This document shows, piece by piece, positions 1,504-7,920 of a stretch of 20,000 nucleotides of DNA. The DNA comes from Candidatus Limnocylindrales bacterium (GTDB lineage: Bacteria > Moduliflexota > Moduliflexia > Moduliflexales > JAUQPW01): positions 56,816-76,815 of the forward strand of contig DATMBG010000039.1 in assembly GCA_035559535.1 (NCBI GenBank), given 5' to 3'. Position 1 is the stretch's first letter, and the number at the start of each line of letters is the position of its first letter. Under the pieces are notes generated by a model. The model worked only from the letters and a program-made list of their open reading frames with translations. It searched no databases and had not been told where the DNA came from. A program made the translations under genes and the position numbers.

Positions 1504-2391
1504 ATGGGAAAGCAACTTACTTTTATGGACCGACTCTACAGTCTGATAGACAGGCTTTTCGATAAGTTAGAAAAAATCTGGGAAAGCATCTATACCCAGC
1601 GGATAGTCACCGATTTACTGGTTCTTGCCTTTGTAATTGGATTAATCGTTATTGAACTGAATCGAAAGGGAGTACTTCCAGAAACTCTCAGCGAGTGGGT
1701 CCCCCGCAACCATTTCTACGCAGTAGGTTTGGCCTTTACCTTACTTCTGTTCCTGGAAGCCATTGGGTTGGTCTTTGCACTTGCTCATTCCGTGGCTGAC
1801 TCTCTGGGTAAGCAATTTCAGGTGCTCTCTTTGATTCTTTTACGTAAACCTTTCAAAGAGTTTATATACTTCGACGAACCTATCACCTGGACCCAGGTCT
1901 CCAGTCCTGTACTTCATATTCTTGCCGATGCGAGCGGTGCATTACTTATCTTTGTTGCCCTGGGGTTCTACTATCATGTGCAACAGCATCGTCCCATCAC
2001 CAAGGATACCCTGGAGCAGTTTAGATTTACGGCAGCTAAGAAGTTAGTGTCTCTACTCTTATTAACCCTTTTTGTAATGATTGGAGTAAATCATCTTCGG
2101 AGTTACCTGGTTCAAGGATCTATCAACAGTTTTTTCGATACCTTTTATACTCTCCTTATCTTTAGTGACGTATTGATTGTATTGATTTCGCTACGGTATA
2201 GTTCGACCTATAAGGTCGTCTTTCGCAATTCCGGTTTTGCTTTAGTTACGGTGGTGATTCGGCTGGCCTTAACCGCTCCGCCTTATATTGATGTAGGCCT
2301 TGGGCTATGTGCAGCCATTTTGGCCTTGGGATTTACGCTGGCATATAATGCCTTTGAGCCTGTGGTACGGGAACGCATTGAAAAAGACTAA
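1504..2391 (+). CDS. Polytopic membrane protein of unknown function (about 7-8 hydrophobic segments, possibly two PsiE-like repeats)
   Basis: 295-aa ORF starting 11 nt after the previous stop, with multiple long hydrophobic stretches. Confidence 0.75.
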   Translation: MGKQLTFMDRLYSLIDRLFDKLEKIWESIYTQRIVTDLLVLAFVIGLIVIELNRKGVLPETLSEWVPRNHFYAVGLAFTLLLFLEAIGLVFALAHSVADSLGKQFQVLSLILLRKPFKEFIYFDEPITWTQVSSPVLHILADASGALLIFVALGFYYHVQQHRPITKDTLEQFRFTAAKKLVSLLLLTLFVMIGVNHLRSYLVQGSINSFFDTFYTLLIFSDVLIVLISLRYSSTYKVVFRNSGFALVTVVIRLALTAPPYIDVGLGLCAAILALGFTLAYNAFEPVVRERIEKD

Positions 2392-2482: not shown

Positions 2483-2866
2483 CTAATCGGAGTTTCCCTC
2501 TGAAAGCCATCTAAGAATTCTAAAGTGCAAGGCCGCACTATTAAGATCTTCCATTTCACAAAATACTTTCATAAACTCGCGGCCTTCTATAAGGTAGCAC
2601 AGATCCTTAAAAAATAACGCAATAATAACCCCTTTACAGGTTTCTGGATCGATGGATTTATTTTTTAAGTATCGGACCAGAGTCGGATAGATTTTATCAC
2701 GCAAATACTCCCAGGATTTATCCACGGGCAAAACAACTTCATAAAAAAGAACTTTATCCCCGGACTCTTCCTGGGTTTTAGATAATTCTTCCAAAGTTTG
2801 GTTGTAAGCGATACCCGGTATGATTTTAAAGGCTTTTGAGAATAAAAGCTCACGAAAATCGGCCAC
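2483..2866 (-). CDS. Hypothetical soluble protein (127 aa), last gene of the HPF-sigma/anti-sigma/baeRF1 unit
   Basis: GTG start with AGGAGG RBS (2875-2880), 33 nt after the baeRF1 stop. Globular alpha/beta-like composition. Confidence 0.8.
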   Translation of the reverse strand: MADFRELLFSKAFKIIPGIAYNQTLEELSKTQEESGDKVLFYEVVLPVDKSWEYLRDKIYPTLVRYLKNKSIDPETCKGVIIALFFKDLCYLIEGREFMKVFCEMEDLNSAALHFRILRWLSEGNSD

Positions 2867-2899: not shown

Positions 2900-4075
2900 T
2901 CAAGCCGGTGGTAAAGCTCGAAGGGAAGCCGGCATTTTAAAGCGGAGTAAAGCTCCGATCCTTCCCAGTTGTTTTAAAATAGGATTATTTGGGATATGTT
3001 CCACTTCTCCCCGTTGGCGGTAGACTTCTTCAATAGCTTCATCTACCACATCGGGGACCTCTTCAAGGGGTCCTTGACAAATCGGGCAGGATTTTTCTTC
3101 CACCGTGGTTAAAAGTCCACAATTCCGGCACTCTAAGCCGGGAGCCGAAAAATCTTCCTCTACCAACAGGGTATGGATATTTCCTACATAAAGGGCTTTT
3201 AAGGTATCGTGTAACCCGGAGACCCCAAAGCCTCCCGTAGCCACTTCTTCCATAAGTCGGGTTACCAGTTGCACTTCCTGCTTCTGTTCCACATCTCTTT
3301 CGATCTGAAGGATTTGAGTCTTAATTTCCTGGATGGGGGTTTCCACATCCAGATCCAGCCGGGCGACCAATCTTTTTATGAGGAAGCTATGTAAACATCT
3401 TTCAAATTCCGGGAGGATATCGCTTCGTCCTCCAATAACAAGATAGTCGAAGCGCTTCTCTTTGAAGAAATCAAAGACCCGATCGGCAACCTGTTTAAGA
3501 TGCCGATAAACATGGTATTCAATATGACGCTCGATGCGTTTTTCTTCCAGACCGTACCACCCGGCTATCCGAACTTTTCCCGGAACCTCCTCATCAAAGA
3601 CTTTAAAATGCTCTAGAATTTCGCCTAAATACACCTCAAAGATTCTGGCTTTATCGCGACTGACCAGGACTAAACAATAGCGATGATATTCATCCAGGAG
3701 AACGGTTAGAGGGCGTATGTAGGGATCATTTCCAACCACGAGAACATTCTTAACAGGTCGGGGAAGCCGATATACTTGCCAGAAATCCTTTCCACTACAG
3801 GAGAAAATAGCCAGACCTCTGGTATTATTTCGTTTAAACTCTTCTCCTACAAAACGCTCGATTTTTTCAAAATCTTCTTCCAGGGATTTCATGACCCCAT
3901 GGGGTAGGTGTTCTGCTTCCAGCTCCAGCCGCCGTTCTTTAATTAAATTTTTAGTGATTGTTTCATAATCCCGGGGGGTATATTTACTTCCATCTACATT
4001 CAGATAAAAGCTACAGGTCTTATAGGTTTCTCCCTTAAAATTTAAAAGTTTCTCTATATCTGCCGAAGAAATCAT
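2900..4075 (-). CDS. Bacterial archaeo-eukaryotic release factor homolog (baeRF1, family-10-like / Balon-like) with a C-terminal Zn ribbon
   Basis: aeRF1-like three-domain layout: N-domain (SFYLNVDG...GLAIFSC), linker PYIRPL, middle domain (LVLVSRDKARIF...LVIGG), C-domain (G.SGL..TL.AL..G.I.TLLV, CRNC...CPIC, IGALLRF). ATG at 4075 is preceded by GGAGGTAAGGAG; the track's TTG at 4078 is the alternative. Confidence 0.88.
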   Translation of the reverse strand: MISSADIEKLLNFKGETYKTCSFYLNVDGSKYTPRDYETITKNLIKERRLELEAEHLPHGVMKSLEEDFEKIERFVGEEFKRNNTRGLAIFSCSGKDFWQVYRLPRPVKNVLVVGNDPYIRPLTVLLDEYHRYCLVLVSRDKARIFEVYLGEILEHFKVFDEEVPGKVRIAGWYGLEEKRIERHIEYHVYRHLKQVADRVFDFFKEKRFDYLVIGGRSDILPEFERCLHSFLIKRLVARLDLDVETPIQEIKTQILQIERDVEQKQEVQLVTRLMEEVATGGFGVSGLHDTLKALYVGNIHTLLVEEDFSAPGLECRNCGLLTTVEEKSCPICQGPLEEVPDVVDEAIEEVYRQRGEVEHIPNNPILKQLGRIGALLRFKMPASLRALPPA

Positions 4076-4139
4076 CAACTTCTCCTTACCTCCTTGTTGG
4101 TATCCTGGGATAGTCCGTTAAAGAAATCAGATTTCTTTG

Positions 4140-4376
4140 TTATTCTCGATTTTCTAAAGCTTGCTGAATCAATTTTTCCACCCGCTCTGAATAACCTTCC
4201 GGAAGGTCTACTTCTTCTAAAGTTGTAAAGAACTCTTCCGCCAGATTTAAAAGGGTCAGACGCTCTTCACAATTTGGGCACTCTTTAATATGTTCGGCAA
4301 TATCTTGAAGCAGGTCGGGGTGGAGTCCCTTATCCATATATTCTGAGAGGTAATTTATCACCAACTGACATTCCAT
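4140..4376 (-). CDS. Soluble zinc-binding anti-sigma factor (ZAS / zf-HC2)
   Basis: M.C......LS.Y.D..L.......HIKECPNC gives the HxxxCxxC signature. No TM helix. GGAGGTGA RBS. Lies directly downstream of an ECF-like sigma gene. Confidence 0.88.
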   Translation of the reverse strand: MECQLVINYLSEYMDKGLHPDLLQDIAEHIKECPNCEERLTLLNLAEEFFTTLEEVDLPEGYSERVEKLIQQALENRE

Positions 4377-4421: not shown

Positions 4422-5435
4422 TTACACGAGTTCTGTTTCTTCCAACTTTGCTTGTAAGAATTCCCGTGCAGATTGAATTTCTTTTCGTACCTCATCAACG
4501 GATTTTCTCCTCACCCAGGCCACTTCTTCCAGGCTGAAGCCTTCCACGCTGTAAAGTATAAAAGATTCCCGCCAGCCTTTGGGGAGTTGACTCAAGGTTT
4601 GATGAATATATTTTTGAATTTCTTGACGGGTTACGATCTCTTCAGGAGTCGGCATCTTATCATCCGGTACGAGATCTTCCAGTTTTAGAGTTTCATCCGG
4701 TTGCCAGAAATCCAGTATTTCACTTCCCAGGGTAGAGACGGCCTCTGTAGGCTCCGGTTCTGGAATTTCGGTTTCAACAGGAACTCTGGCCTCTCGCTCT
4801 GCTTTAATTTTCTCAACTTCCCGTTCCAAAATATCCAGGGCAATCCGATATAACCAGCGATCCAGGGGAAAGGAATCCGGCTTCTGATCAAAGTTTCTTA
4901 CTGCAAACAGAACAGTCTCATCTACTACGTCGGTAATCGTCAGATCATAGGGTTCTATATCTTCTATGAGTTGATGGTAGATGATCTCCCTTCGGACAAA
5001 ATTATAGAGTTTCTTAAGTTGAGGAAGGATCAGGTCGGTAAGTGCCTTAGCTTCATAGGTCTTTTCATAAGGAGCCATTCCCGAAACAAGTTCTTGAACT
5101 TGGAATTTAGCCCGCTTTCGCTTATAGGCATCTTCCATTCGGAGCTTACTTTTAACATCTTCCAGTTGCTTGAGGAGCTCTCCACAGACTTCTTTCAAAA
5201 CATGCCGAAGGTTCTTACCTTGCTCCTCGGCATGGAGTTGTCGTTTGGGAAGGGAAAGGGTGAAAAGAGCTGCATACTCCTCTTTTCTTGGGTGTTTCTC
5301 CAGGGTTACATGTAGAAATACTTGATCTTCCGGGAACTTTAAGGTTCGCCGTTCTATTCTTTTAATCTGTCTTTCCAGATAGTTCTTAATCGAAAACGCC
5401 GGCTCCAGATTCTTGTAGAAAACTTCGTGTCGCAA
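4422..5435 (-). CDS. Fusion of an HPF/RaiA (S30AE) ribosome-hibernation domain and an ECF-type sigma-70 factor (sigma2 + sigma4)
   Basis: The N-terminal ~100 aa fit the HPF beta-alpha-beta-beta-beta-alpha pattern (RHEVFYKNLE...IKNYLERQIKRIER...LHVTLEK...LSLPKRQLHAEEQG.NL...L..QL...K.KLR). Then sigma2-like LYNFVRR...DVVDET...WLYRIA and sigma4-like LSQLP..WRESFIL..VEGFSLEEVA. The likely start is TTG at 5435, 5 nt after GGAGGTGA (the track uses GTG 5453). Confidence 0.82.
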   Translation of the reverse strand: MRHEVFYKNLEPAFSIKNYLERQIKRIERRTLKFPEDQVFLHVTLEKHPRKEEYAALFTLSLPKRQLHAEEQGKNLRHVLKEVCGELLKQLEDVKSKLRMEDAYKRKRAKFQVQELVSGMAPYEKTYEAKALTDLILPQLKKLYNFVRREIIYHQLIEDIEPYDLTITDVVDETVLFAVRNFDQKPDSFPLDRWLYRIALDILEREVEKIKAEREARVPVETEIPEPEPTEAVSTLGSEILDFWQPDETLKLEDLVPDDKMPTPEEIVTRQEIQKYIHQTLSQLPKGWRESFILYSVEGFSLEEVAWVRRKSVDEVRKEIQSAREFLQAKLEETELV

Positions 5436-5741
5436 CAGACTCACCTCCGACACTCAATCCAACAGGATGAGAAGGGGATACTGGATTTGGAGGGAAACTG
5501 CCTTCCTTTCAGGGTTTTTTTCTTGACTTTGGGTTGTATTTGTGGGCTCTGGTCTTCAACCTGTTTGGGTCAGGTTAAAGGATCCAGAGCGCACGGGGTA
5601 GGGGTTTTCAGAAGGTTGATTCGGAAAAGCTACCTTCTCTCCCCTTTCTTAACATGGGCCAGGAAATTTACCCGTTGAATCGGATTCGGATCAACTGTTA
5701 TTGGATATCCTATACCTTTGTAGTGCCTTTACAGGCTTCCT

Positions 5742-7466
<1,725 letters not shown>

Positions 7467-7485
7467 TGGATCCTTCTCGGGACGG

Positions 7486-7773
7486 CTATTCTAGAATGGC
7501 TAAGACATCATCTTCTCGTAGGATGAGATACTCTTCCTCATCGAGTTTAACTTCAGTTCCCGCATATTTGCCGAAGAGAACTTTCTGACCAACCTGAACT
7601 TCCAGGGGCAATTGTTTACCGTTTTCTAACCACTTCCCCTTTCCAACCGCAATAACTTCACCCTGTTGAGGTTTCTCCTTGGCGGTATCTGGGATGATGA
7701 TCCCTCCTTTCCGAACTTCGGGTTCTTCTATTCTTTTAACGACGATTCGATCATGAAGTGGAGTAATTTTCAT
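7486..7773 (-). CDS. groS: Co-chaperonin GroES (Cpn10)
   Basis: [32 protein letters not shown] and KYAGTEVK motifs. AGGAGG RBS. Confidence 0.99.
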
Positions 7774-7891: not shown

Positions 7892-7920
7892 ATTATAAAA
7901 TCTTAGTCCGAATTTATCAA
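7892..7920 (-). promoter_or_regulatory. Sigma-70 type promoter for groES-groEL
   Basis: Minus strand reads TTGATA-N17-TATAAT (-35 at 7915-7920, -10 at 7892-7897), about 120 nt upstream of groES. Confidence 0.7.

What the first reader, a model, noticed from the sequence alone, without database searches (positions are those of the whole stretch)
4422..5435. One polypeptide joining a ribosome-hibernation domain to an ECF sigma factor
Seen: an uninterrupted ORF with an HPF-like N-terminal ~100 aa (about 5120-5435), then sigma2, an acidic Pro-rich linker (ETEIPEPEPTE...LDFWQPDETLKLEDLVPD) and sigma4. Inference: vacant ribosomes could sequester the sigma, making it a sensor of translational idleness. 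Alternatively, the anti-sigma could gate HPF activity, or the protein could tether RNA polymerase to dormant ribosomes. Such fusions may already be in databases but I know of no functional study.
Basis: partly seen in the sequence, partly recalled or inferred. Interest (0 to 1): 0.8.

Follow-up and report, generated by a model that had tools for sequence, protein, structure and literature searches.

The report
HPF-domain fused to sigma-factor module
A real, widely conserved gene joins a ribosome-silencing (HPF-type) domain to a sigma-factor-like module. This kind of chimera was already described in 2025-26, but nobody has yet tested what it does.

Summary
Window 4422-5435 (-) encodes one 337-aa protein. 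It has an S30AE/HPF-fold domain with a basic tail, then sigma2, a conserved acidic linker and sigma4 (Pfam, NCBIfam, AlphaFold2 and Foldseek all agree).

It is no artefact. 118 of the best 150 cluster representatives carry both halves, and 64 of 98 public loci are fused. Fourteen loci, all in one clade, encode the halves as two genes coupled by an ATGA overlap.

The family includes the "hypothetical" orf11 of the enterobacterial heat-resistance island (tLST/LHR). It is the "HPF-SigE" chimera named in bioRxiv 10.1101/2025.11.04.686544 and in PMC13392368. This scan has also met it before on other DNA.

Here it heads a cluster after groES-groEL: fusion, soluble zinc anti-sigma (ZAS), Balon-type aeRF1-like factor, and a 127-aa unknown.

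Both halves keep their fold but have lost hallmark residues:
- HPF: 7 of 14 basic columns kept.
- Sigma2: 7 of 23 conserved columns kept, and the invariant Gln is replaced by Asp.
- Sigma4: 16 of 24 kept, and the generic recognition-helix residues are lost.

My best reading is a RaiA-like partner of the Balon-like factor on hibernating ribosomes, with a sigma-derived, redox-gated handle. A true ribosome-linked ECF sigma remains a serious rival. It is a new member of a known, functionally untested kind.

The parts
4422..5435 (-). HPF-sigma chimera gene, 337 aa from TTG 5435; stop codon at 4422-4424
   Evidence: ORF. SD GGAGG at 5448-5444. The start codon is TTG here and GTG in the related genome. 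Domains.
5142..5435 (-). S30AE/HPF-fold domain, residues 1-98 (beta-alpha-beta-beta-beta-alpha)
   Evidence: PF02482 at 32.1 bits, above 23.7. Model elements E2-8, H14-30, E40-47, E54-61, E66-73, H76-98. Solved HPFs align at TM 0.81-0.88. An HMM built from 32 canonical HPFs scores 26.6 bits over residues 5-100.
5064..5141 (-). Basic helix and low-confidence tail, residues 99-124. This is where the split forms end the first gene.
   Evidence: Helix 101-117; pLDDT below 50 at 114-121. Split junctions fall just after the 'WKRRxRRE...' segment.
4788..5063 (-). Sigma2-like domain, residues 125-216
   Evidence: TIGR02937. Helices 125-216. ECF sigma structures match. Only 7 of 23 columns conserved in the genome's own ECFs are kept.
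4647..4787 (-). Acidic Pro-rich sigma2-sigma4 linker, residues 217-263; the best-conserved stretch of the family
   Evidence: Consensus. It aligns to the AlgU linker.
4425..4646 (-). Sigma4-like domain, residues 264-337
   Evidence: PF08281 at 26.0 bits, above 25.7. 16 of 24 ECF-conserved columns are kept; the HTH-turn Gly and a recognition-helix Arg are lost.
4140..4376 (-). Soluble zinc-binding anti-sigma (ZAS), 78 aa, with C3 and H29xxxC33xxC36
   Evidence: PF13490 zf-HC2 at 28.3 bits, above 22.2. Weak RsrA match, E 8.2e-6. Sequence.
2900..4078 (-). Balon-type aeRF1-like protein (baeRF family 10), 392 aa, with a CxxC...CxxC insert and no GGQ or NIKS motif
   Evidence: PF18854 at E 1.5e-28. 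NF052287 Balon family scores 78.9 bits, below its 330 cut-off. Solved Balon MSMEG_1130 (8v9j_z) matches at E 3.3e-8. Motifs read.
2483..2866 (-). 127-aa ORF of no known family, last gene of the same-strand cluster
   Evidence: ORF. No Pfam match. 98% identical in the related genome.
5742..7773 (-). groES (7486-7773) and groEL (5742-7364), directly upstream on the same strand
   Evidence: Translations. Sigma70-like promoter at 7920-7892 upstream of groES, 11 of 12.

Best explanation
The gene is a member of the HPF-SigE / tLST-Orf11 family.

Shown: two intact folded modules. One is an HPF fold with a basic tail. The other is a sigma2, acidic linker and sigma4 module. They are kept as one polypeptide in most lineages and as two ATGA-coupled genes in one clade. 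Here the gene is followed on the same strand by a soluble ZAS protein and a Balon-type factor, after groES-groEL.

Inferred mechanism:
1. The N module docks in the 30S decoding channel, as HPF/RaiA and the sibling chimera HPFcold do. It plays the RaiA role beside the co-encoded Balon-like factor on idle ribosomes.
2. The roughly 27-residue basic tail lets the C module sit outside the channel, as appended domains of other HPF forms do.
3. The sigma-derived module is the regulated handle. The ZAS protein holds it while its Zn-thiolate site is reduced. Thiol or proteotoxic stress releases it.
4. What the freed module then does is open. It could bind RNAP core, with or without promoter-specific initiation.
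For: HPF identity of the N domain:
- The fold and profile are HPF.
- The family's N-domain HMM matches all 32 canonical HPF ORFs from 32 loci end to end.
- The N domain is basic: median net charge +5 against +1.5 in canonical HPFs. It keeps K/R in 7 of 14 canonical basic columns family-wide and 9 of 14 in this protein.

Ribosome context:
- The Balon paper says Balon genes most often sit next to raiA and that the two bind one ribosome together (PMC10901736, passages). Here and in 19 of 95 loci a baeRF10 gene is a neighbour of the chimera.
- The preprint notes the same adjacency, and notes coexistence with a canonical HPF. This genome has three other S30AE genes.
- The sibling chimera HPFcold is seen by cryo-EM in the decoding centre, with its extra domain outside (PMC13392368, passages).

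Sigma module unlike an ordinary ECF:
- It lacks hallmark residues: sigma2 keeps 7 of 23 conserved columns and sigma4 16 of 24.
- Its family-specific linker is the best-conserved part.

Redox control: the gene immediately downstream is a ZAS in 10 of 82 loci and a zinc-ribbon thioredoxin 2 in 27 of 82.
Against: - Canonical HPF signature residues are not kept either: T6, H9, T13, E57, Y77, D81 and K86. Two of them show charge reversals. Ribosome binding is therefore not assured.
- Sigma-only relatives exist: 5 internal loci without an N domain, and 32 of 150 representatives. The C module can evidently stand alone, as a real sigma would.
- A cognate ZAS is the classic partner of a working ECF sigma.
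- The module passes the TIGR02937 cut-off and resembles AlgU/RpoE over its whole length.
- Neither ribosome binding nor RNAP binding was tested.
- Deleting the distant relative orf11 changed neither heat nor chlorine resistance in E. coli carrying the island (PMC8407380, passages). This argues against any strong role there.
Confidence: 0.42

Rival explanations
1. It is a working ECF-type sigma factor related to RpoE/AlgU. The ZAS protein holds it inactive and thiol oxidation frees it. It then drives the operon and proteostasis genes (Balon-like factor, chaperones). The HPF-derived N-terminal extension either parks it on vacant ribosomes, or autoinhibits it.
For: - TIGR02937 and PF08281 both score above their cut-offs.
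- The family profile matches AlgU at E 1.3e-20 across sigma2, linker and sigma4.
- The fold matches ECF sigmas, including anti-sigma-bound forms at TM 0.69-0.77.
- A ZAS gene is adjacent.
- Sigma-only family members exist.
- Neighbours are stress genes: Hsp20 in 13, ClpB-like in 14, DnaJ in 7 and Trx2 in 31 of 95 loci. groESL lies next door here, and GroES-GroEL-DnaK lie next door on a Paraburkholderia plasmid.
Against: - The invariant Gln of sigma2 'DLVQE' is Asp in the family (0% Gln), and the 'IArN' Asn is kept in 3%.
- The HTH-turn Gly is kept in 4% and a recognition-helix Arg in 7%.
- Only 10 of 82 loci have a ZAS directly downstream.
- No shared two-block promoter motif was found upstream.
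- Deleting orf11 gave no heat or chlorine phenotype in E. coli.
Confidence: 0.3
2. It is a physical tether between the two machines. The HPF domain sits in the 30S and the sigma-like module holds RNAP core, so that transcription and translation machinery are stored or silenced together under stress.
For: - The parts of the C module that are best conserved are not the generic DNA-reading residues. They are the first sigma2 helix and the acidic linker, which aligns to the AlgU linker.
- The fold of both halves is intact.
- In one clade the two halves are made in coupled 1:1 fashion from ATGA-overlapping genes.
Against: - In split forms the two halves are not covalently joined, so a tether would need a non-covalent contact for which I have no evidence.
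- The invariant sigma2 Gln is replaced. From recalled knowledge of region 2.2, this residue lies in the main core-binding region.
- No experimental hint exists.
Confidence: 0.12
3. It is a PhyR-like sigma mimic. The degenerate sigma-like module titrates the ZAS anti-sigma away from another, real sigma factor, and the HPF domain acts as the input domain.
For: - Weak matches to PhyR sigma-like models: PF22233 at E 0.00099 and NF006623 at E 8.1e-7.
- PF22233 is precomputed on 4 of 8 homologues.
- Hallmark sigma residues are lost.
Against: - PF22233 scores 19.3 bits, below its 27 cut-off.
- PhyR structures match only the sigma4 part, whereas AlgU/RpoE match sigma2 and the linker as well.
- There is no receiver domain.
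- No second sigma gene is in the window or among the conserved neighbours.
Confidence: 0.07

Closest known systems
'HPF-SigE' chimeric HPF isoforms (bioRxiv 10.1101/2025.11.04.686544, section 10 read; named again in PMC13392368, passages)
   Same: An N-terminal PF02482 domain without the long-HPF dimerisation domain, joined to a SigE-like module. It coexists with a canonical HPF and is often next to Balon. All three points hold here.
   Different: In the parts I read, the papers give no test of function, no mention of a ZAS or Trx2 partner, and no mention of split forms. Their supplements could not be opened.
[quoted passage not shown]
   Same: Same family and same two halves. tblastn gives E 7e-15 at 26% identity over 95% of the query. 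The family N-HMM matches residues 1-103 at 33.3 bits, and the C-HMM matches 141-349 at 153.7 bits. The neighbour set is similar: Hsp20, ClpB/ClpK-like, HdeD/DUF308, Trx2 and PsiE.
   Different: orf11 is followed by thioredoxin Trx-GI rather than a ZAS, and no Balon-like gene is annotated in the stretch read. It is so diverged that Pfam sees only a weak sigma4 (E 0.022). It is carried on plasmids and islands, whereas this one is chromosomal beside groESL.
HPF / RaiA (YfiA) / long HPF ribosome hibernation factors
   Same: Same fold, Pfam family and size of the N module. A basic tail follows helix 2, as in RaiA-sized proteins; that comparison is recalled.
   Different: Several signature residues are replaced and half of the conserved basic columns are weakened. 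The C-terminal partner is a sigma-like module instead of a dimerisation domain.
RpoE/AlgU-type ECF sigma factors with ZAS anti-sigmas (for example SigR-RsrA)
   Same: Sigma2-linker-sigma4 layout without sigma3, an AlgU-like acidic linker, and an adjacent HxxxCxxC protein.
   Different: It carries an HPF domain at the N terminus, has a 45-residue conserved linker, and has lost the invariant sigma2 Gln and the generic sigma4 recognition residues. All NCBIfam equivalog models score far below their cut-offs.
HPFcold (HPF-cold-shock-domain chimera, Coxiella burnetii; PMC13392368)
   Same: A sibling chimera: an HPF domain plus a foreign C-terminal domain on a short linker. Cryo-EM shows the HPF domain in the decoding centre.
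   Different: The appended domain is an RNA-binding cold-shock domain that grips the anti-Shine-Dalgarno sequence. It is not a sigma-like protein-binding module.

Membership tests
S30AE / HPF-RaiA (PF02482) | Profile match above the curated cut-off | tested here: met
   32.1 bits, above 23.7. The family profile matches solved HPFs at E 5e-16 to 1e-9.
S30AE / HPF-RaiA (PF02482) | Beta-alpha-beta-beta-beta-alpha fold | tested here: met
   Model elements. Foldseek TM 0.81-0.88 to 8uu7_w, 4hei_A and 2rql.
S30AE / HPF-RaiA (PF02482) | Conserved basic surface and signature residues of canonical HPFs | tested here: inconclusive
   7 of 14 basic columns are kept at >=60%, 5 partly, 2 lost. The window protein has K/R at 9 of 14. 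T6, H9, T13, E57, Y77, D81 and K86 are not kept.
S30AE / HPF-RaiA (PF02482) | Binds the 30S decoding channel and blocks translation | not testable with these tools
   Needs binding assays or cryo-EM.
ECF (group IV) sigma-70 factors | Sigma2 plus sigma4 only, recognised by family models | tested here: met
   TIGR02937 at 50.7 bits, above 42.9. PF08281 at 26.0, above 25.7; PF04542 (sigma2) was not among the matches at E<=1. Fold matches.
ECF (group IV) sigma-70 factors | Hallmark sigma2 residues (DLVQE Gln, IArN Asn) | tested here: not met
   7 of 23 columns conserved in this genome's 11 ordinary ECFs are kept. Gln is kept in 0% (Asp instead) and Asn in 3%.
ECF (group IV) sigma-70 factors | Generic sigma4 HTH recognition residues (G-T-V-K-S-R...R-A-R) | tested here: not met
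   16 of 24 conserved columns are kept, but the turn Gly is kept in 4% and an Arg in 7%.
ECF (group IV) sigma-70 factors | Adjacent cognate anti-sigma | tested here: met
   zf-HC2 protein 45 nt downstream. Family-wide this holds in only 10 of 82 loci.
ECF (group IV) sigma-70 factors | Own ECF-type promoter or autoregulation; RNAP binding and initiation | tested here: inconclusive
   No shared upstream motif. Biochemistry is not testable here.
HPF-SigE chimera / tLST Orf11 family | HPF domain plus SigE-like module, no dimerisation domain; a canonical HPF elsewhere in the genome; homology to orf11 | tested here: met
   118 of 150 representatives have both halves.
PhyR-type sigma mimic | PhyR sigma-like domain above cut-off, plus a receiver domain | tested here: not met
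   PF22233 at 19.3 bits, below 27; no receiver domain.
Balon (neighbour gene 2900-4078) | Equivalog-level match to Balon families; aeRF1 fold without GGQ/NIKS | tested here: inconclusive
   NF052287 at 78.9 bits, below 330, and NF052288 at 65, below 480. However, PF18854 matches at E 1.5e-28, solved Balon 8v9j_z matches at E 3.3e-8, and no GGQ or NIKS is in the sequence.

The most novel reading that the evidence does not exclude
The sigma-derived module is neither an ordinary promoter-reading sigma nor an inert tail. It is a redox-gated adaptor, controlled by ZAS or Trx2, that brings RNAP core to HPF-occupied ribosomes or releases it from them. One protein would then report ribosome idleness to transcription, or store both machines together. 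The pattern of conservation leaves this open: the fold, the first sigma2 helix and the acidic AlgU-like linker are kept, while the generic DNA-contact residues are lost. So does the existence of translationally coupled split pairs.
Probability: 0.15. Interest if true: 0.85.

Novelty: new member of a known kind. Interest (0 to 1): 0.45.

Why it matters
If the chimera really binds both ribosomes and RNA polymerase, or binds ribosomes and an anti-sigma, it would be a direct protein link between the state of translation and stress transcription or dormancy.

The family is large: 523 cluster representatives at E<=1e-10. It reaches clinical Enterobacteriaceae, because it includes the unexplained orf11 of the heat and chlorine resistance island. 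Plasmid matches number 285 records, among them Klebsiella 114, Enterobacter 74, Acinetobacter 31 and Escherichia 17.

For this window itself the result is mostly a clean annotation. It is a redox-linked hibernation and proteostasis cluster (groESL, chimera, ZAS, Balon-like factor) in a deep-branching, uncultured lineage.

Tried and rejected
- **Complex prediction.** I tested the sigma part (122-337) against the N domain (1-118), both as alignments. The result was no support, score 0.00 against a mark of 0.32. This is no evidence either way.
- **Two-block promoter scan.** I scanned 41 non-redundant upstream regions for two-block motifs. The best pair occurred in 8 regions, against 5-6 in the reverse-complement and shuffled controls.
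- **AGTTTC candidate motif.** A candidate 'AGTTTC...TATCC' motif is shared with the nearest relative's upstream region, and partial 'AGTTTC' matches occur in L017 and L023. AGTTTC occurs in 7 of 41 regions on the forward strand against 1 on the reverse. Genome-wide, AGTTTCC-N10-14-TATCC gives 14 hits. Eleven cross an open frame of more than 250 codons, and the only relevant downstream gene is the chimera itself. I rejected it as a regulon motif. It also lies in a hairpin.
- **Footprinting against the related genome.** The intergenic DNA is 87% identical, which is too close to be informative.
- **CIRCE element near groES.** 0 matches with up to 3 mismatches.
- **Sigma2 column comparison by hmmalign.** The ECF rows fell into insert columns. 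I redid it with MAFFT.
- **ZAS protein against solved structures.** Nothing below E 0.18.
- **ECF classification papers.** The main texts have 0 occurrences of 'ribosom' or 'hibernation' (PMC7826278, PMC7671368, PMC8999054). Their supplementary tables of N-terminal extensions could not be opened.
- **Tree search.** The careful search did not finish in 268 s, so the quick tree was used.
Full report
**What is there**

The - strand of window 4422..5453 is one open frame of 343 aa from GTG. A GGAGG at 5448-5444 lies 8 nt before TTG 5435-5433. That codon is GTG in the related genome, whose protein is 94% identical.

Pfam finds Ribosomal_S30AE at 32.1 bits (cut-off 23.7) and Sigma70_r4_2 at 26.0 bits (cut-off 25.7). 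NCBIfam finds sigma70-ECF over 137-337 at 50.7 bits (cut-off 42.9). Every equivalog model for named sigmas scores far below its cut-off.

An AlphaFold2 model built on 101 family members has mean pLDDT 87.1 and pTM 0.59. Its parts are:
- a strand-helix-strand-strand-strand-helix domain (2-98);
- a helix (101-117) with a low-confidence stretch (114-121);
- a helical sigma2 (125-216);
- a partly disordered linker;
- a helical sigma4 (264-333).

Foldseek aligns the first part to solved HPFs: 4hei_A at TM 0.88 and rmsd 2.1, and 8uu7_w at TM 0.81. It aligns the rest to ECF sigmas, best to anti-sigma-bound compact forms at TM 0.69-0.77. The family profile matches AlgU (E 1.3e-20), RpoE and CnrH. Separately it matches Listeria, Thermus, Vibrio and E. 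coli HPFs at E 5e-16 to 9e-13.

**It is a family, mostly fused**

A word-indexed search gave 8 relatives. Seven cover the whole query at 33-94% identity. The exhaustive search gave 1211 cluster representatives at E<=1e-3, 523 at <=1e-10 and 73 at <=1e-30. Of the best 150, 118 carry both halves and 32 only the sigma part, some of them fragments.

Eighteen species genomes hold a relative: Acidobacteriota, Nitrospirota, Nitrospinota, Binatia, Myxococcales, a Sedimenticola and unclassified MAGs. Eighty metagenome loci were added. Among 41 genomes near the window's own, only 2 have the full protein, its own and its congener. The other hits there are ordinary ECFs matching sigma4 only.

Across the 98 public loci:
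- the two halves are in one frame in 64;
- they are adjacent in different frames in 18;
- the N side is cut by a contig end in 11;
- it is absent internally in 5.

In 14 of the 18 adjacent cases, the first ORF's TGA overlaps the ATG of the second (ATGA). The break falls right after the basic helix and before the first sigma2 helix. These are natural two-gene versions with translational coupling. The other four are irregular breaks.

On a quick IQ-TREE tree of the sigma part (74 rows, SH-aLRT support only, careful search unfinished), all 14 split forms fall in one starred clade of 24 rows. That clade also holds 6 fused forms, and every other clade is fused. Six duplicate loci were left out of the tree and of the neighbour counts.

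**Link to the heat-resistance island and to print**

tblastn against plasmids found 285 records, 282 of them covering at least 80% of the query and all below 60% identity. They include Klebsiella 114, Enterobacter 74, Acinetobacter 31 and Escherichia 17.

In a Klebsiella plasmid the match is the 'hypothetical protein' between hdeD-GI and trx-GI. That is orf11 of the locus of heat resistance / tLST. Pfam sees only a weak sigma4 in it. My family HMMs match both halves: the N-HMM at 33.3 bits over residues 1-103 and the C-HMM at 153.7 bits over 141-349.

A review calls orf11 less than 30% identical to anything known (PMC8290217, passages). In a set of 13 single knock-outs, orf11 is not among the 7 genes needed for heat or chlorine resistance (PMC8407380, passages).

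The architecture itself is already in print. A preprint describes HPF isoforms that lack the dimerisation domain and are fused to Csp, 'SigE' or CBS domains. It says they coexist with canonical HPF and often lie next to Balon (bioRxiv 10.1101/2025.11.04.686544, section 10 read). A 2026 paper names 'HPF-SigE' (PMC13392368, passages).

I found no functional study. The searches were 'ECF sigma' + 'hibernation promoting factor' + 'fusion', 'extracytoplasmic function' + 'S30AE' with 0 papers, 'ECF' + 'N-terminal extension' + 'sigma 54 modulation protein' with 0 papers, and 'locus of heat resistance' + 'orf11'. The ECF classification papers do not mention ribosomes or hibernation in their main text, and their supplements were closed.

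This scan has met the family before on other DNA. Those notes agree with mine. One of them prompted me to test whether the sigma part is degenerate.

**Context**

On the same strand the order is:
- groES (7486-7773) and groEL (5742-7364);
- a 306-nt gap with no sigma70-like promoter or terminator on that strand;
- the chimera;
- a 45-nt gap, then a 78-aa soluble ZAS with C3 and H29xxxC33xxC36;
- a 61-nt gap, then a 392-aa baeRF-family-10 protein;
- a 33-nt gap, then a 127-aa unknown.

The baeRF protein has a CxxC...CxxC insert and neither GGQ nor NIKS. It matches the solved mycobacterial Balon at E 3.3e-8. It stays far below the Balon equivalog cut-offs, so I call it Balon-type rather than Balon.

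I clustered neighbours over 95 loci; related loci are not independent. The recurring same-strand neighbours are:

| Neighbour | Loci of 95 |
|---|---|
| Zinc-ribbon thioredoxin 2 | 31 |
| baeRF10 | 19 |
| Phosphoglycerate kinase | 17 |
| ClpB-like | 14 |
| Hsp20 | 13 |
| PsiE | 12 |
| DUF308/HdeD | 11 |
| BON | 10 |
| DnaJ | 7 |
| MerR | 7 |

This is the parts list of the tLST.

The gene directly downstream could be judged in 82 loci; 13 had too little sequence:

| Gene directly downstream | Loci of 82 |
|---|---|
| Trx2 | 27 |
| ZAS | 10 (the window's clade) |
| MEDS histidine kinase | 8 |
| PGK | 5 |
| baeRF | 1 |
| Other or none | 31 |

The genome has three other S30AE genes of 178-185 aa.

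**How intact are the two halves?**

The family's N-domain HMM matches all 32 canonical HPF ORFs from 32 loci end to end.

For the column comparison I used 101 family members against 32 canonical HPFs:
- 14 columns are at least 60% Lys/Arg in canonical HPFs.
- The family keeps 7 of them, keeps 5 partly (0.34-0.50) and has lost 2.
- This protein has Lys/Arg at 9 of the 14.
- Canonical signature residues are not kept: T6, H9, T13, E57, Y77, D81 and K86. D81 and K86 show charge reversals.
- The domain is nevertheless more basic, with median net charge +5 against +1.5.

For the sigma module I compared the family with this genome's 11 ordinary ECFs:
- In sigma4, 16 of 24 conserved columns are kept. 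The HTH-turn Gly (4%) and a recognition-helix Arg (7%) are not.
- In sigma2, only 7 of 23 are kept. The invariant Gln of 'DLVQE' is Asp (0% Gln), and the Asn of 'IArN' is kept in 3%.

The strongest conservation lies in family-specific pieces. These are the first sigma2 helix (LxxLYxFVRRE) and the acidic linker (EILDFYQPDExLKLEDxxPD), which aligns to the AlgU linker.

**Reading**

Both halves are folded and under selection, yet neither is a textbook copy.

I rank first the reading that the protein acts at the ribosome as the RaiA-like partner of the co-encoded Balon-type factor. Three points support it:
- Balon genes sit most often beside raiA, and the two bind one ribosome (PMC10901736, passages).
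- The sibling chimera HPFcold sits in the decoding centre with its extra domain outside.
- The sigma-derived module could serve as a handle controlled by Zn-thiolate proteins (ZAS here, Trx2 elsewhere).

I give this 0.42.

A working, ZAS-gated ECF sigma with an HPF-derived extension is a close rival at 0.30. It is favoured by three things:
- sigma-only relatives exist;
- the whole-length likeness to AlgU/RpoE;
- the classic anti-sigma neighbour.

An RNAP-ribosome tether (0.12) and a PhyR-like mimic (0.07) are not excluded.

Every mechanistic step beyond domain identity, gene order and conservation is inference.

**Verdict**

The architecture is already described though functionally untested.

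- the fused/split census and its clade structure;
- the ZAS/Trx2 alternation;
- the residue-level divergence of both halves;
- an independent confirmation of the orf11 link.

Noticed in passing
window 5558-5576 (- strand), between groEL and the chimera: A hairpin, AACCTG-ACCCAAA-CAGGTT, whose 7-nt loop is exactly reverse-complemented (TTTGGGT) in the related genome while both stem arms are unchanged. This may be a small inversion within a stem-loop.
   Followed up: no
G000 contigs C22:123703-123969, C41:2436-2729, C37:124774-125043 (loci L031-L033): The genome carries three further S30AE/HPF genes of 185, 182 and 178 aa besides the chimera. Two of them (L033, L032) score closer to the chimera's N-domain HMM than the best canonical copy does.
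   Followed up: partly
related loci L016, L026, L035 and 24 others: In most of the family the gene right after the chimera is a thioredoxin 2 with an N-terminal zinc ribbon, not a ZAS protein. Two different Zn-thiolate proteins occupy the same slot in different clades.
   Followed up: partly
loci L050-L056, L059: In one soil clade the chimera is followed by a MEDS-domain histidine kinase instead of ZAS or Trx2.
   Followed up: no
window 2483-2866 (-) and 1504-2391 (+): Two ORFs of 127 and 295 aa have no Pfam match. The 127-aa one closes the chimera-ZAS-Balon-like cluster and is 98% identical in the related genome.
   Followed up: no
window 7892-7920 (-), upstream of groES: A near-consensus sigma70-type promoter (TTGATA-17-TATAAT, 11 of 12) with no CIRCE operator within 3 mismatches. 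groESL here does not look HrcA-controlled.
   Followed up: partly
locus L036 (Paraburkholderia phenoliruptrix plasmid pSYMBR3459, 110681-111832): A cultivable plant symbiont carries a family member. It is annotated 'sigma factor-like helix-turn-helix DNA-binding protein' and sits between three Hsp20 genes and GroES-GroEL-DnaK. It could serve as a handy experimental model.
   Followed up: partly
loci L087, L090, L102, L107: Four loci have the two halves in different frames without the clean ATGA junction. These may be frameshifts, decayed copies or assembly errors.
   Followed up: no
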